The notes under the pieces are model-generated. The model saw only the letters and a program-made list of their open reading frames with translations. It ran no database searches and was not told the DNA's origin. A stretch of DNA of 64,000 bases from Thermoplasmata archaeon (GTDB lineage: Archaea > Thermoplasmatota > Thermoplasmata > Lutacidiplasmatales > UBA184), in assembly GCA_035507575.1 (NCBI GenBank), contig DATJNY010000029.1:20067-84066 (forward strand), in the 5' to 3' direction. Position numbers and translations under genes: made by a program. Numbering within the stretch: position 1 is the stretch's first letter; the number at the start of each line of letters is the position of its first letter. This document shows, piece after piece, positions 47,381 through 50,538 of the stretch.

Positions 47381-48349
47381 TTAACGGGAATCGGGGAAGC
47401 GCCGACCCTCGGTCGGCAGGTGCTCCACGACGAGATCCGCGGTCGTGCGGACCGGGCGGCCCAGCGGGACTCGGGCGGAGATCACCCCCCCGTACCGTTC
47501 GAACACCCTTGTGGTGTGCAGCGTGAGGCACCGACCGTCGTACACGGAGCGACCGGTGAGGTCCGGGTCGTGGCCGCGCAGGAACACCGAGAGACCGGTC
47601 GCGCGGAGGAACCGGGTGAGGTCCTCCGCGGTCCAGGCCTCCGAAACCCCCCGGCGGAGCCGGGACGCCTCGCATTCCGTCCACACGATGTCGACGAGCG
47701 TCGTTTCGTCCGGGTCGTCGAAGACGCGCCGCCAGGCGGTCGGGAGGGGCGTGCGCGGGAATCCGGCGTGGGCGAAGTAGAGGCCATTCGCCGAGACGGC
47801 GGCGAGGGGCCCCCGCTCGAGGAGCGCCGCCAGCCTCGTGTACCGGGCGGCGACGGGGCCCCACAGCTCGTCGACCTCCTCGGGGAGGGAGCTCGGCAGC
47901 ACCGGGATGCGGGAGGCCGTCTCGTGGTTTCCCTGCACAAGGAAGACACGGTCCGGAAACCGGGCCGCGAGGTCGAGGAGCAGGCAGGCGTTCACCACCG
48001 AGCCGTCCGCGGAGTCGTCCGGCACCCGATCGACGTAGTCGCCCAGGCCGACGAGACAGCGGGGACCGCCGTCGGGCCGGAGGAACTCCTCGCGGACGGC
48101 GAGCGTGGACCGCCAGTCCCCGTGGGTGTCGCCGAATACGAGCGCTTCGGTGAACCCCGACGCGGGCAGCTCCGCGACCCCGTTTCGGAGGGGGACCGCA
48201 CGCTCCAGCCGGTCGAGCAGGCGATCGGCGTCCTCGGGAGAGGCGTCGAGCACCGCCCCCGGATCGAGCGGGGGATCGATCACGGCTGCGCTCCTCCGCT
48301 CAGCGACGGGGAAATGCGGGGGGCCGGAATTTCCGGCCGCCGGTCGCAT
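47381..48349 (-). CDS. PPP-family serine/threonine protein phosphatase (metallophosphoesterase)
   Basis: It has GDTHGD, GDYVDR and GNHE motifs. The maximal ORF runs through the tRNA-Gln gene, so the start must be at or below 48489. Candidates are ATG 48349 or GTG 48282, which is preceded by GGAGGAG. Confidence 0.75.
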   Translation of the reverse strand: MRPAAGNSGPPHFPVAERRSAAVIDPPLDPGAVLDASPEDADRLLDRLERAVPLRNGVAELPASGFTEALVFGDTHGDWRSTLAVREEFLRPDGGPRCLVGLGDYVDRVPDDSADGSVVNACLLLDLAARFPDRVFLVQGNHETASRIPVLPSSLPEEVDELWGPVAARYTRLAALLERGPLAAVSANGLYFAHAGFPRTPLPTAWRRVFDDPDETTLVDIVWTECEASRLRRGVSEAWTAEDLTRFLRATGLSVFLRGHDPDLTGRSVYDGRCLTLHTTRVFERYGGVISARVPLGRPVRTTADLVVEHLPTEGRRFPDSR

Positions 48350-48489
48350 CGACCGGACGGTCCTTTGAACCGGCGCATGCCCTAGGCAACAGGGTCCTAA
48401 GCCCTGCCTCGGTGGCCCGTCGCGCATGTGCGCGTCGTTTGGCCGAGCTGGAGCACCCCCGCATCGGAAGCCGTAGGTATACCGCCAGA

Positions 48490-48596
48490 TAGCCCCGGCA
48501 GGAGTTTCGGCCGGCGGGGTCGCGGACCCCCGCGGCGTTCGAACCTGCGTCGCGAGATCCAGAGTCTCGCATGATTGGCCACTACACCACGGGGCT
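48490..48596 (-). tRNA. tRNA-Gln (anticodon CUG) with a 34-nt non-canonical intron in the T-loop (position 59/60)
   Basis: Manual fold: acceptor AGCCCCG/CGGGGCT, anticodon stem CGAGA/TCTCG, loop CTCTGGA, T stem GCAGG/CCTGC. The T-loop TTCGAA|T is interrupted by the intron. The BHB motif is TTCG[AAC]GCC...GGC CGAA[ACT]. The mature length is 73 nt, with discriminator A and no encoded CCA. Confidence 0.85.
48504..48537 (-). other. tRNA intron (bulge-helix-bulge substrate)
   Basis: The intron is CGCCGCGGGGGTCCGCGACCCCGCCGGCCGAAAC. Its internal hairpin is GCGGGG..CCCCGC, extended by GCC/GGC. Two 3-nt bulges are separated by the 4-bp helix TTCG/CGAA. Confidence 0.8.
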
Positions 48597-48621
48597 ACGC
48601 GGCGCTTCAGCGGCGGGGCGT

Positions 48622-48630
48622 TGATAAACA
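48622..48630 (-). promoter_or_regulatory. TATA-like element (TGTTTATCA on the minus strand) upstream of tRNA-Gln
   Basis: It lies about 30 nt upstream of the tRNA 5' end at 48596. Confidence 0.5.
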
Positions 48631-48756
48631 TTGCCCGCGGCGCACGGCGCCGGTCGGCGGACCGGCGCGCCCGGCCGCGGACCGGACGCCGTCGTCCCAC
48701 CGTACTTCACAAATAGGCCAACGGAGTCCGACGCCGGTCCATGCCCCGGAGGTCGC

Positions 48757-50538
48757 ATGGCGGAGGGAGAGACGATCCGCCCGGTCGATCGCAGCCCGAC
48801 CTCGGCCCCGGGGCCCACGCCTAAGTCCCGGTGGTGGCCGTCCGCGCGACGGTCCGCGACGATCTATCTGGCGATCCCGCTCCTCGCCTCGACGGCGCTC
48901 GCCGCGACCGTTGGCGTGTCGTTCGGGAATCTCGCGAACTACCTCCCGACCGCGGGGATCGACGTTGTCTACTCGTTCCTGCGGATGTCGGCGGCGTACG
49001 GGCTCTCGCTCGCGTTTGCGCTCGCGTACGGCTACTACGCGGCCACCCGCCGGACGGGCGAGCGGGTGATGATCCCGATCCTGGACATCCTGCAATCGGT
49101 ACCGATCCTCGGTTTCTTTCCGGTCGCGATCGTGGTCTTCGCCGCCCTCACTCCCAACAGTTGGCCCGGGGTGAATTTCGCCTCCGTGTTCCTGATCTTC
49201 ACCTCGATGGCGTGGAACATGGTCTTCGGGGTGTACGAGTCCCTGAAAACCCTCCCCGCGGAGCTCAAAGAGGCCGCCGACACGTTCCACGTCCGTGGAA
49301 TCCTCCTGTTCCGCCGGGTCCTCTTCCCGGCGACGATCAATCGCCTCGTCTACAACTCCGTCCTCTCCTGGACCGCGGGTTGGTTCTTCCTGGTCGAAGC
49401 CGAGATCTTCACCACCAACTCGAGCCAAGCCTTGCCCGGGATCGGAAGCTTCCTCTCGTTCGCTGCGAGCGAACACAACACCAACGCGTTCCTCGCGGGG
49501 ATCGTGGTATTGGTGGCGCTGATCGCCTTCCTCGACTTCGCGGTCTGGCGGCCGCTCGGGAAATGGGCCGAGCGGTTCCGGTATGATACGGCCCCCTCGG
49601 GCGAAGGCGAGGCGATCACCGGCGGGGACTCGGCCGGACGGTTCAGCCGGGTCGCGGCGTACGTTCGTCGCGGCGTGCGCACGAGCGTCGCGCGCATCAG
49701 TACGCCGCTCGTCCAGATCGCGGCGATCGCCGTCGCACCCGCCCGGAAGACCGAACGTCGACGCAGTGCGCTCTCCTACTTCGGGATCGGCGCGATCCTC
49801 GTGATCGGGTGGCTGCTCGTTATCGCCCTGTCCGTCGCGATCTTCCACGTCTTCTCCGGTCCGATCTTGCCGGGAGTGCTCCACCAGATCGAGCTGCTAC
49901 CGCTCGCGATGGGCGCGTCGATGGCCCGGGTCGTCGCCGCGTACGTCCTCTGTCTCCTGATCGCGTTGCCCCTCGGCTTGCTCCTCGCCCGCAGCCCGCG
50001 CGCGGCCCGGTTCGGGATGCCGACGGTGGAGGTGATCGCCTCGTTCCCCGCGACCGCGCTCTTCCCGGTGATCATCTTCGAACTGATCCCCTACATCTCG
50101 GCCGAGGGCGCGGCGGTCCTGATGCTCATGACGGGGATGCTCTGGTATCTCTTCTTCAACATCCTCTCGGGCATCCGTGCCCTGCCTCCGGATCTCGACG
50201 AAGCCGCGCACTCCTTCGGCCTTCGGGGCTGGAAACGATTCTCGCAGGTCGTGCTGCCGGGGATCTTCCCGGCGCTCATCACCGGATCGATCACGGCCTT
50301 CGGAGGCGGTTGGAACACGCTCATCGTCGCGGAGTACCTGAACGTCGGGAGCTCGCAATCCCTCAGCCTCTTCGGCGTCGGCCGGGCCATCGACATCGGC
50401 TACGCCATGCCGAACCACACCGGCTACCCGCTGATGGTCGCCGCCATCCTCACGCTCGTCGGAACCGTCGTCGCCATCAACGAACTCATATGGAAACCGC
50501 TCTACCGACGGGCGGTCGAGAAGTACCGCTACGACTGA
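48757..50538 (+). CDS. ABC transporter permease, duplicated/fused (NitT/TauT-like family)
   Basis: Two homologous permease halves are present (…RVMIPILDILQSVPILGFFPV… and …RFGMPTVEVIASFPATALFPV…), each with an EAA-like loop (ELKEAADTFH / DLDEAAHSFG). I placed the start at ATG 48757. Confidence 0.8.
   Translation: MAEGETIRPVDRSPTSAPGPTPKSRWWPSARRSATIYLAIPLLASTALAATVGVSFGNLANYLPTAGIDVVYSFLRMSAAYGLSLAFALAYGYYAATRRTGERVMIPILDILQSVPILGFFPVAIVVFAALTPNSWPGVNFASVFLIFTSMAWNMVFGVYESLKTLPAELKEAADTFHVRGILLFRRVLFPATINRLVYNSVLSWTAGWFFLVEAEIFTTNSSQALPGIGSFLSFAASEHNTNAFLAGIVVLVALIAFLDFAVWRPLGKWAERFRYDTAPSGEGEAITGGDSAGRFSRVAAYVRRGVRTSVARISTPLVQIAAIAVAPARKTERRRSALSYFGIGAILVIGWLLVIALSVAIFHVFSGPILPGVLHQIELLPLAMGASMARVVAAYVLCLLIALPLGLLLARSPRAARFGMPTVEVIASFPATALFPVIIFELIPYISAEGAAVLMLMTGMLWYLFFNILSGIRALPPDLDEAAHSFGLRGWKRFSQVVLPGIFPALITGSITAFGGGWNTLIVAEYLNVGSSQSLSLFGVGRAIDIGYAMPNHTGYPLMVAAILTLVGTVVAINELIWKPLYRRAVEKYRYD

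What the first reader, a model, noticed from the sequence alone, without database searches (positions are those of the whole stretch)
48490..48596. tRNA-Gln(CUG) split by a 34-nt intron at the non-canonical 59/60 T-loop position with a perfect hBHBh' motif
The minus strand reads AGCCCCG-TG-GTGT-AGTGGCCAA-TCAT-G-CGAGA-CTCTGGA-TCTCG-CGAC-GCAGG-TTCGAA-[CGCCGCGGGGGTCCGCGACCCCGCCGGCCGAAAC]-T-CCTGC-CGGGGCT-A. The acceptor and T stems close only if the bracketed 34 nt are removed. The junctions form a textbook bulge-helix-bulge. The T stem GCAGG/CCTGC is continuous with the 4-bp helix TTCG/CGAA. Two 3-nt bulges (AAC and ACT) lie on opposite strands. An outer intron helix follows (GCC+GCGGGG / CCCCGC+C+GGC). 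Cleavage after the second bulge nucleotide on each side is the same geometry as at canonical 37/38 introns. It gives a 7-nt T-loop TTCGAAT and a 73-nt mature tRNA. Tools restricted to anticodon-loop introns would miss this gene, and a 439-aa six-frame ORF runs straight through it. To my knowledge, non-canonical intron positions are mainly a Thermoproteales/crenarchaeal feature and are uncommon in euryarchaeon-like contexts such as this one.
Basis: partly seen in the sequence, partly recalled or inferred. Interest (0 to 1): 0.7.

Follow-up and report, generated by a model that had tools for sequence, protein, structure and literature searches.

The report
tRNA-Gln gene with T-loop intron
This is a real glutamine tRNA gene interrupted by a 34-base intron in an unusual place (the T-loop), conserved across a whole order of soil archaea, and a second tRNA gene with two such introns that the standard finders run here miss sits right next to it.

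Summary
Window 48596..48490 (minus strand) is a tRNA-Gln(CUG) gene. It carries a 34-nt insertion (48537..48504) between tRNA positions 59 and 60. Removing the insertion gives a perfect 73-nt cloverleaf. The predicted minimum-energy fold of the precursor contains a strict hBHBh' splicing motif.

The same gene occurs in the same gene neighbourhood in more than 100 related contigs from soil and peat. One of them is a named Ca. Lutacidiplasmatales (TMEG, Thermoplasmata) genome. Across these contigs the exons are almost invariant. The intron keeps its length and its bulge-helix-bulge geometry, but its interior has 89 different sequences. This rules out a pseudogene, a chance match and the 439-aa ORF.

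The mechanism (EndA cleavage, then ligation) is inferred, not shown. Intron position 59/60 and the motif are already known from ARMAN-2 and Crenarchaeota. The finding is therefore a new member of a known kind, in a lineage where reviews expect only canonical introns.

One addition: 27 nt downstream lies an undetected tRNA-Leu(UAG) gene (48462..48315). It has two non-canonical introns, one in the D-loop at 21/22 and one in the T-loop at 59/60. ARAGORN and Rfam both miss it. I could not identify the splicing endonuclease of this clade.

The parts
48490..48596 (-). tRNA-Gln(CUG) gene, 107-nt precursor body (positions 1-73 plus intron)
   Evidence: Sequence check and ARAGORN on the spliced form. 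Conserved in 116 loci.
48538..48596 (-). tRNA-Gln 5' exon (tRNA positions 1-59, ends ...GCAGGTTCGAA)
   Evidence: Invariant in 84 distinct relatives except columns 9, 19 and a compensatory pair at 30/42-43.
48504..48537 (-). 34-nt intron at position 59/60. The first nt C completes the 5' bulge AA|C. GCC.../...GGC plus an inner GC helix form h'. CGAA is the 3' strand of helix H. AC is the first two nt of the 3' bulge AC|U.
   Evidence: 34 nt in 109 of 116 loci, with 89 distinct sequences. A strict motif in the minimum-energy fold of 71 of 90 distinct precursors, against 32 of 1800 interior-shuffled controls.
48490..48503 (-). tRNA-Gln 3' exon (U60, T-stem 3' strand CCUGC, acceptor 3' strand CGGGGCU, discriminator A73; no encoded CCA)
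   Evidence: Invariant in all relatives.
48621..48636 (-). Archaeal promoter-like element: TATA box TTTATCAA at -32..-25, preceded by a BRE-like GGGCAATG
   Evidence: Consensus GGCAACGTTTATCAACGG in 95 distinct upstream regions. AT fraction is 0.95-1.0 at -31..-28 in a roughly 70% G+C background.
48463..48489 (-). 27-nt spacer between the two tRNA genes. There is no room for a promoter of its own, which suggests one transcript.
   Evidence: 27 nt in 74 of 94 distinct loci. Inference for co-transcription.
48315..48462 (-). tRNA-Leu(UAG) gene, 148-nt precursor body with two non-canonical introns. Not found by ARAGORN or Rfam.
   Evidence: The spliced 86-nt form is a perfect class II tRNA-Leu by ARAGORN, while the precursor gives 0 genes. 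92 distinct versions exist in relatives.
48412..48438 (-). tRNA-Leu intron 1, 27 nt, in the D-loop between A21 and C22. H = exon GGCC paired with intron GGCC. Bulges are AA|A and AC|C. Helix h uses the D-loop CTC (16-17a) with GAG (23-25).
   Evidence: The exon junction is fixed by relative L148, which lacks this intron. The intron's H strand is always GGCC, GGCT or GGTC, and all of these pair with exon GGCC. The centroid fold of the full precursor shows the hBHBh'.
48329..48363 (-). tRNA-Leu intron 2, 35 nt, in the T-loop at 59/60. H = UUCA against GGAA or GGGA: three pairs plus a conserved A57.G juxtaposition. Bulges are AA|G and AU|U. This is a weaker, BHL-like motif.
   Evidence: 35 nt in 74 and 32 nt in 18 distinct sequences. 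The motif is not the minimum-energy fold (1 of 92).
47381..48283 (-). Metallophosphoesterase gene. This is the real part of the 439-aa ORF. GTG start with GGAGG 8 nt upstream.
   Evidence: Pfam PF00149, 54.8 bits. Start candidates. Syntenic in 101 intron-class loci.
47381..48700 (-). 439-aa mechanical ORF. Its first 139 codons run over both tRNA genes and are not a gene.
   Evidence: 71 of 97 relatives have in-frame stops across the tRNA region.
48823..50538 (+). Divergently oriented ABC-transporter permease gene (start approximate)
   Evidence: Pfam PF00528, 114.6 bits. Syntenic in 91 intron-class loci.

Best explanation
Window 48596..48490 (minus strand) is a functional tRNA-Gln(CUG) gene of a high-G+C Thermoplasmata archaeon, most likely of the order Ca. 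Lutacidiplasmatales (TMEG).

The proposed pathway is as follows.
1. The gene is transcribed from a BRE/TATA promoter about 25-40 nt upstream, probably together with the tRNA-Leu(UAG) gene 27 nt downstream.
2. In the precursor, T-loop nucleotides U54-G57 pair with the intron's CGAA. The T stem, this 4-bp helix and an intron hairpin then stack into an hBHBh' motif with two 3-nt bulges.
3. The archaeal splicing endonuclease EndA cuts after the second nucleotide of each bulge (A59|C and C|U60).
4. An RtcB-type ligase joins the exons, giving a 73-nt tRNA with the normal T-loop UUCGAAU.
5. The ends are trimmed by RNase P and tRNase Z, and CCA is added.

Shown here: the sequence, the motif, the restored cloverleaf, and the evolutionary conservation of exons, intron length and motif.

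Inferred: transcription, the enzymes, the exact cleavage sites and co-transcription.
For: Sequence and boundaries are exact.

The spliced product is a perfect cloverleaf. It is 68/73 identical to an intronless Thermoplasmatales tRNA-Gln(CUG), L105, which scores 61.7 bits in Rfam. The unspliced gene scores 25 bits.

The minimum-energy and centroid folds contain the strict hBHBh'.

A genome scan with a pattern that placed no constraint downstream of GTTCRAA found the same exons with a 34-nt insertion at 59/60 in 3 genomes. One is MAG AcS13-54, assigned to Lutacidiplasmatales in PMC9287336. The other 31 Thermoplasmata or Methanomassiliicoccales tRNA-Gln genes in the sample have no intron.

A metagenome scan added more than 100 loci: 109 with 34 nt, 89 distinct introns and only 8 distinct mature sequences.

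All cells in the tRNA stems and in helix H are paired. The first h' pair is G-C in 84/84, with compensatory changes further in, for example GCC/GGC to GUC/GAC.

The motif appears in the minimum-energy fold of 71/90 sequences, against 1.8% after shuffling the intron interior.

Synteny with the same two flanking genes holds while those proteins diverge to 54-85% identity.

The BRE/TATA box is conserved.

Archaeal EndA recognises the motif independently of the mature tRNA domain. A Thermoplasmata-type homodimeric enzyme (Ferroplasma) cuts minimal BHB substrates (PMC8707768, PMC7714728).
Against: There are no RNA data, so splicing, cleavage sites and expression are not observed.

No endonuclease or ligase gene was found in the window. 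I could not tie an EndA gene to this clade.

The metagenome pattern required CGRAANTC near the intron's 3' end. The invariance of helix H and of the 3' bulge spacing in those loci is therefore partly imposed by the search. Only the three genome-scan loci are unbiased on that point.

Whether the genome also holds an intronless tRNA-Gln(CUG) could not be checked beyond the window.
Confidence: 0.9

Rival explanations
1. The locus is a tRNA-Gln pseudogene disabled by a 34-nt insertion. The bulge-helix-bulge appearance is a by-product of G+C-rich sequence.
For: The unspliced gene falls below the Rfam threshold. No expression data exist. G+C-rich sequence folds readily.
Against: The exons are invariant across more than 80 distinct relatives whose neighbouring proteins are only 54-85% identical. 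The intron interior averages 64% identity yet keeps its length and its helix. Shuffled interiors form the motif in 1.8% of trials, against 79% observed. The promoter is conserved. A decaying pseudogene would not show this pattern.
Confidence: 0.03
2. The gene is the uninterrupted 73-nt tRNA that ARAGORN reports at 48524..48596, using the first part of the 'intron' as its T-stem and acceptor 3' strands.
For: ARAGORN calls it. Rfam aligns the same span at 25 bits. The intron's 5' part (CGCCGCGGGGGUC) resembles the true 3' end.
Against: That fold has A.C and G.G mismatches in the acceptor stem and two mismatches in the T stem. It is below the Rfam gathering score. In relatives the 'intron' bases it relies on change freely, for example CGUCGACCGGCG in L027. 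The downstream segment UCCUGCCGGGGCUA is invariant.
Confidence: 0.02
3. The region is protein-coding: it is the N-terminal part of the 439-aa ORF 47381..48700.
For: The ORF is open in the window. Indels in the spacer and in the neighbouring introns are mostly multiples of three.
Against: 71 of 97 relatives have in-frame stops across the region. Only the C-terminal 300 residues match a protein family, and a GTG start with a GGAGG upstream lies at 48283. The exons show no synonymous-site variation. Long spurious ORFs are expected at 70% G+C.
Confidence: 0.01
4. The insertion is removed, but not as modelled: at other junctions, or by an enzyme other than a standard EndA.
For: The clade's EndA was not identified. 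The neighbouring tRNA-Leu T-loop intron has only a weak, BHL-like motif, so the enzyme may have unusual specificity.
Against: For tRNA-Gln the motif is strict and matches the canonical geometry. Only cuts at A59|C and C|U60 restore a 7-nt T-loop with U54, U55, C56 and A58.
Confidence: 0.04

Closest known systems
Non-canonical 59/60 tRNA introns of Ca. Micrarchaeum acidiphilum ARMAN-2: pre-tRNA-Pro(GGG) with a strict hBHBh', pre-tRNA-Cys(GCA) with hBH (PMC3239211)
   Same: The intron sits between T-loop positions 59 and 60. The T stem serves as helix h. The tRNA-Pro case has the same strict hBHBh' geometry.
   Different: The host lineage and the tRNA differ. ARMAN-2 has a three-unit epsilon2 EndA with broad specificity, and more than half of its tRNA genes are disrupted. 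Here the host is a Thermoplasmata order whose relatives carry two-repeat (alpha'2-like) EndAs.
Canonical 37/38 bulge-helix-bulge introns of Euryarchaeota, e.g. Haloferax volcanii tRNA-Trp, tRNA-Met and tRNA-Gln(UUG) with a 31-nt intron (PMC7714728)
   Same: The motif, the predicted enzymes and the cleavage rule are the same. The intron lies between the 6th and 7th nucleotide of a 7-nt loop closed by a 5-bp stem, so 59/60 in the T arm is the structural twin of 37/38 in the anticodon arm.
   Different: The intron is in the T arm, not the anticodon arm. T-loop nucleotides 54-57 are sequestered until splicing. Gene finders tuned to anticodon-loop introns mis-call or miss the gene.
Multiple and non-canonical tRNA introns of Thermoproteales and other Crenarchaeota (PMC4090602, PMC4033280)
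   Same: Introns occur at D-loop and T-loop positions, and there are tRNAs with two introns, like the neighbouring tRNA-Leu.
   Different: Those lineages use (alpha-beta)2 EndA with a specific loop. They show many relaxed motifs and evidence of intron transposition. Here the Gln and Leu introns show no sequence similarity beyond composition.
Methanopyrus kandleri pre-tRNA-Glu(UUC), with introns at 20b/21 and 37/38 (PMC5829648)
   Same: It is a euryarchaeal tRNA with two introns, one of them in the D-loop, and so resembles the neighbouring tRNA-Leu(UAG).
   Different: M. kandleri has an (alpha-beta)2 EndA, and its D-loop motif is relaxed (HBh'). Here both tRNA-Leu introns are non-canonical in position, and the D-loop one can form a full hBHBh' through an alternative CTC/GAG pairing.

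Membership tests
Archaeal bulge-helix-bulge (hBHBh') tRNA intron | Two 3-nt bulges on opposite strands, separated by a 4-bp helix | tested here: met
   Bulges AAC and ACU flank UUCG/CGAA in the minimum-energy and centroid folds.
Archaeal bulge-helix-bulge (hBHBh') tRNA intron | Flanking helices: h formed by exon-exon pairing and h' formed within the intron | tested here: met
   h is the T stem GCAGG/CCUGC. h' is GCC(G)/(C)GGC plus an inner GC helix. h' forms in 71/90 relatives, against 1.8% of shuffles.
Archaeal bulge-helix-bulge (hBHBh') tRNA intron | Cutting after the second bulge nucleotide on each side restores a standard tRNA | tested here: met
   The 73-nt product is a perfect cloverleaf. 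It is 68/73 identical to an intronless homologue that scores 61.7 bits.
Archaeal bulge-helix-bulge (hBHBh') tRNA intron | The motif is kept in relatives while the intron interior diverges | tested here: met
   89 distinct introns against 8 distinct mature sequences. Compensatory and wobble changes occur in h' and H. Caveat: helix H was partly fixed by the metagenome search pattern.
Archaeal bulge-helix-bulge (hBHBh') tRNA intron | Cleavage by EndA and ligation in the cell | not testable with these tools
   No RNA data are available. Junction-spanning reads or an in vitro assay are needed.
Archaeal bulge-helix-bulge (hBHBh') tRNA intron | The host genome encodes a splicing endonuclease | tested here: inconclusive
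   No EndA is present in the window or in the held loci. Thermoplasmata-type two-repeat EndAs of about 350 aa exist on high-G+C contigs, but none could be assigned to this clade.
Archaeal tRNA-Gln | Cloverleaf with anticodon CUG, A1-U72 pair and discriminator A73 | tested here: met
   ARAGORN on the spliced form. All tRNA-Gln genes listed from the 119-gene genome scan sample begin with A and end ...UA. That A1-U72 is typical of archaeal tRNA-Gln is also my own knowledge.
Canonical (37/38) archaeal tRNA intron | The intron lies one nucleotide 3' of the anticodon | tested here: not met
   The anticodon arm CGAGA-CUCUGGA-UCUCG is uninterrupted. The insertion follows position 59.
Self-splicing group I or group II tRNA intron | Ribozyme core of hundreds of nucleotides | tested here: not met
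   The insertion is 34 nt. There is no Rfam intron match even at E<=10.
Protein-coding gene (439-aa ORF) | The reading frame and the protein sequence are conserved in relatives | tested here: not met
   In-frame stops in 71/97 relatives. The Pfam domain lies only in the last 300 residues.

The most novel reading that the evidence does not exclude
The order Ca. Lutacidiplasmatales may be a 'Cluster II' euryarchaeal lineage with a habit of disrupted tRNA genes. The evidence is a conserved tRNA-Gln/tRNA-Leu unit with three non-canonical introns. One of them, the tRNA-Leu T-loop intron, has only a weak, BHL-like motif with a conserved A57.G in helix H. This would imply that the clade's two-repeat EndA has broadened its substrate range, perhaps through a new insertion. 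That would be an independent case of the tRNA-gene/endonuclease co-evolution so far described for TACK, DPANN and Asgard archaea. It would also imply that more tRNA genes of these genomes are hidden from current annotation.
Probability: 0.25. Interest if true: 0.6.

Novelty: new member of a known kind. Interest (0 to 1): 0.4.

Why it matters
Reviews state that Euryarchaeota with alpha4 or alpha'2 endonucleases carry single introns at the canonical position (PMC4090602). They list multi-intron tRNAs in Euryarchaeota only for Methanopyrus kandleri and Methanothermobacter thermautotrophicus (PMC4033280).

Here an abundant order of soil and peat Thermoplasmata keeps a T-loop intron in tRNA-Gln(CUG), and two non-canonical introns in the adjacent tRNA-Leu(UAG).

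Practical consequences:
- Rfam-based scans give no tRNA hit for either gene.
- ARAGORN gives a wrong 3' end for tRNA-Gln and nothing for tRNA-Leu.
- ORF callers can lay a 439-aa protein over both genes.
- tRNA complements and gene starts in these MAGs may therefore be mis-annotated.

Conceptually, the clade offers a clean test of whether intron position alone, with a strict motif, is free to move in lineages with a 'strict' endonuclease. It also tests whether the weaker tRNA-Leu motif requires an altered enzyme.

Tried and rejected
1. Haloarchaeal origin. I first suspected the known Haloferax tRNA-Gln intron, but that one is in tRNA-Gln(UUG) (PMC7714728). The haloarchaeal tRNA-Gln genes in the genome scan have no 59/60 insertion. 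The window matches Thermoplasmata instead.

2. A fixed-register covariation count on the whole intron helix was only moderately informative, because the inner helix shifts register between sequences. I replaced it with a per-sequence fold test using shuffled interiors.

3. RNAalifold on the 84-sequence alignment recovered the tRNA stems and helix H but not the variable inner helix.

4. Search for the clade's EndA. An apparent hit in L119 was aRF1 on the other strand. Three protein searches and five contig look-ups found two-repeat Thermoplasmata-type EndAs on contigs of 62-72% G+C. No shared genes or diagnostic tRNAs tie them to this clade.

5. Common origin of the tRNA-Gln intron and the tRNA-Leu introns. 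Alignment scores were no better than for shuffled sequences.

6. A naive stem-matching scan of the window for further T-loop-intron tRNAs gave only the two real genes plus chance hits.

7. The Marck and Grosjean 2003 paper was not available, and the string '59/60' cannot be searched. I therefore cannot exclude an earlier report of this particular intron.

Full report
**1. The observation**

The bracketed 34 nt are window 48537..48504.

With these 34 nt removed, ARAGORN folds the remaining 73 nt as a flawless tRNA-Gln(CUG). It has A1-U72, a 7-bp acceptor stem, 5-bp anticodon and T stems, T-loop TTCGAAT and discriminator A73.

On the genomic sequence ARAGORN instead reports a 73-nt gene at 48524..48596. 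Its acceptor and T stems are mismatched, because the first part of the insertion is used as a false 3' half. The Rfam tRNA model gives the same span 25 bits, below its gathering score of 29. The gene is therefore absent from the default Rfam scan.

For ARAGORN, however, the failure is a wrong 3' end and not a complete miss.

**2. The splicing motif**

This holds for the whole precursor (-54.9 kcal/mol, z = -3.1) and for the T arm plus insertion alone (-29.1 kcal/mol, z = -2.5). The arrangement is:
- the T stem GCAGG/CCUGC (helix h);
- stacked directly on it, a 4-bp helix U54-G57 with the intron's CGAA (helix H);
- a 3-nt bulge A58 A59 C on the 5' strand;
- a 3-nt bulge A C U60 on the 3' strand;
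- an intron hairpin (helix h').

Each bulge lies 3' of its own strand of H, as in canonical anticodon-loop introns. The insertion lies between the sixth and seventh nucleotide of a 7-nt loop closed by a 5-bp stem. Position 59/60 in the T arm is therefore the structural counterpart of 37/38 in the anticodon arm.

**3. Relatives**

I scanned one genome per archaeal species with a pattern for the D arm, the anticodon loop and GTTCRAA. This pattern put no constraint on what follows.
- Three Thermoplasmata MAGs (L019, L027, L103) have the same T-arm exon sequence as the window and a 34-nt insertion at the same place.
- The other 31 Thermoplasmata or Methanomassiliicoccales tRNA-Gln genes in the sample have no intron.
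- L027 is MAG AcS13-54, which Sheridan et al. assign to the new order Ca. Lutacidiplasmatales, the former TMEG group (69% G+C, acidic forest soil; PMC9287336).
- The window has about 70% G+C, and the intron-bearing loci have a median of 68%.

A second scan, of metagenome contigs, used a pattern that required an insertion ending in CGRAANTC.

Taken together, 116 loci carry an insertion at 59/60, and 109 of these insertions are 34 nt long. There are 90 distinct precursors, 89 distinct introns and only 8 distinct mature sequences. One metagenome contig (L158) is identical to the window across the locus.

**4. Selection pattern**

In an alignment of the 84 distinct 107-nt precursors, every exon column is invariant except columns 9, 19 and a compensatory A-U to G-C pair in the anticodon stem. 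The intron interior averages 64% pairwise identity, with a minimum of 26%.

All cells of the tRNA stems and of helix H are paired. U55 pairs with A in 37 sequences and with G in 47. The first h' pair is G-C in 84/84. Further pairs show compensatory changes, for example GCC/GGC to GUC/GAC in L027.

The inner helix shifts register between sequences, so I tested each sequence on its own. The minimum-energy fold of the T arm plus intron is a strict hBHBh' in 71 of 90 distinct precursors. When the unconstrained intron interior is shuffled, this falls to 32 of 1800.

One caveat applies. In the metagenome loci the 3' strand of H and its distance from the junction were imposed by my search pattern. 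On that point only the three genome-scan loci are unbiased, and all three conform.

**5. Context**

The gene lies between a divergently oriented ABC permease (Pfam BPD_transp_1) and a metallophosphoesterase (Pfam Metallophos). The same arrangement is found in 91 and 101 of the intron-bearing loci respectively. Among the best-scoring loci listed, flanking protein identities run from about 85% down to 54%. The tRNA exons have thus stayed fixed over substantial divergence.

Upstream, a motif GGCAACGTTTATCAACGG is conserved in 95 distinct sequences. The window has TTTATCAA at -32..-25 (48628..48621). These positions are 95-100% A/T against a 70% G+C background, which fits an archaeal BRE/TATA promoter.

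The 439-aa ORF 47381..48700 is real as a mechanical ORF. Only its last 300 codons match a protein family, and a GTG start preceded by GGAGG lies at 48283. In the ORF's frame, 71 of 97 relatives have stop codons across the tRNA region. The ORF over the tRNA is a high-G+C artefact.

**6. A second, hidden gene**

The sequence 27 nt downstream of tRNA-Gln is conserved at the nucleotide level in all relatives. It is a tRNA-Leu(UAG) gene, window 48462..48315 (148 nt), interrupted twice.

Intron 1:
- It is 27 nt long (48438..48412) and lies in the D-loop between A21 and C22.
- The junction is fixed by relative L148, which lacks this intron and reads GGCCAA|CGAGG.
- The four intron nucleotides before the last two are always GGCC, GGCT or GGTC. 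All of these pair with the exon's G18 G19 C20 C20a.
- The D-loop CTC (16-17a) can pair with GAG (23-25) to supply helix h. This gives a full hBHBh' with bulges AA|A and AC|C.
- That structure appears in the centroid fold of the full precursor. It is not the minimum-energy fold of the isolated segment.

Intron 2:
- It is 35 nt long (48363..48329) and lies at 59/60, like the tRNA-Gln intron.
- Its helix H has only three pairs, plus a conserved A57.G juxtaposition.
- The motif is not predicted thermodynamically. It is best described as a weak or BHL-like motif.

The spliced 86-nt product is a perfect class II tRNA-Leu by ARAGORN, while the precursor yields no gene. Rfam finds no tRNA at gathering threshold in relatives L027 and L148, which carry both genes.

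The short, promoter-less spacer suggests one Gln-Leu transcript. This is an inference.

**7. Mechanism and comparison with known systems**

The archaeal splicing endonuclease recognises the bulge-helix-bulge motif irrespective of the mature tRNA domain. The homodimeric enzyme of Ferroplasma, a Thermoplasmata member, cuts minimal BHB substrates (PMC8707768). The Haloferax alpha'2 enzyme requires a strict hBHBh' (PMC7714728). The tRNA-Gln motif is strict, so any EndA type should process it.

Position 59/60 is a documented non-canonical site. It appears in the list in PMC4090602, and in ARMAN-2 tRNA-Pro and tRNA-Cys (PMC3239211). The motif, the position and the predicted enzymology are therefore all known.

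What is new is the host. Reviews state that Euryarchaeota with alpha4 or alpha2 enzymes have single canonical introns (PMC4090602). They list multi-intron tRNAs in Euryarchaeota only for M. kandleri and M. thermautotrophicus (PMC4033280).

I could not identify the clade's EndA. The Thermoplasmata-type relatives I retrieved are two-repeat proteins of about 350 aa, some of them on contigs of 62-72% G+C. None could be tied to Lutacidiplasmatales.

Insertions at 59/60 in tRNA-Gln also occur in unrelated low-G+C archaea: Promethearchaeota L117 and L137, and L160, L209 and L231. The site has therefore been used more than once.

**8. Verdict**

It is a new member of a known kind, of moderate interest. 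Two things raise its interest somewhat: its order-wide conservation, and the adjacent doubly interrupted tRNA-Leu that the two finders run here (ARAGORN and Rfam) miss.

Splicing itself, the cleavage sites, expression and the enzyme remain inferred.

Noticed in passing
window 48315-48462 (minus strand): An undetected tRNA-Leu(UAG) gene with two non-canonical introns: 27 nt in the D-loop at 21/22, and 35 nt in the T-loop at 59/60. It lies 27 nt downstream of tRNA-Gln. ARAGORN and Rfam report nothing here, while the spliced 86-mer is a perfect class II tRNA. It is conserved in 92 distinct versions.
   Followed up: yes
L148:860-1100 (relative of the window locus): This divergent clade member lacks the D-loop intron of tRNA-Leu but keeps both T-loop introns. 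Intron gain or loss has therefore happened within the clade.
   Followed up: partly
window 48329-48489 and the same region in relatives: Length differences between relatives are nearly all multiples of three. The spacer is 18, 24, 27, 30, 33 or 36 nt; Leu intron 1 is 0, 24, 27 or 30 nt (one case of 35); Leu intron 2 is 32 or 35 nt. Yet the overlapping ORF is not conserved, and the spacer shows no clear codon periodicity. This is unexplained.
   Followed up: partly
window 48621-48636 (minus strand): A strongly conserved BRE/TATA-like element (GGCAACGTTTATCAACGG consensus) lies upstream of tRNA-Gln. There is no comparable element before tRNA-Leu, which suggests a two-tRNA transcript.
   Followed up: partly
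window 48352 (ATG) versus 48283 (GTG), minus strand: An ATG inside tRNA-Leu intron 2 opens the metallophosphoesterase frame. A gene caller could start the protein there, overlapping the tRNA. The GTG at 48283, with GGAGG upstream, is the more likely start.
   Followed up: partly
L117:7533-7635, L137:1796-1898, L160:464-573, L209:3705-3807, L231:9381-9481, and L013 around 1470-1580: tRNA-Gln genes with 28-37-nt insertions at 59/60 also occur in unrelated low-G+C archaea: Promethearchaeota (L117, with L137 carrying the same exons), unassigned metagenome contigs, and a Woesearchaeota MAG that also appears to be disrupted near its 5' end.
   Followed up: no
L001, L007, L054, L066, L069, L075, L080, L094, L112 (Nitrososphaeria tRNA-Gln loci): The 5' acceptor strand does not match the 3' strand at the expected distance. 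This suggests an intron or split near the 5' end of tRNA-Gln in these Thaumarchaeota.
   Followed up: no
window 48297-48379 (plus strand): A sub-threshold Rfam hit to the dauA ncRNA motif (33.5 bits against a gathering score of 45, E = 0.13) lies antisense to tRNA-Leu. It is most likely a chance match of G+C-rich hairpins.
   Followed up: no
L241:3239-3431: On a 62.5% G+C contig that encodes a two-repeat EndA, ARAGORN finds tRNA-Glu next to a tRNA-Gln(UUG) with a 27-nt intron that ARAGORN places in the anticodon loop. The pair lies within about 1 kb of integrase and resolvase genes.
   Followed up: no
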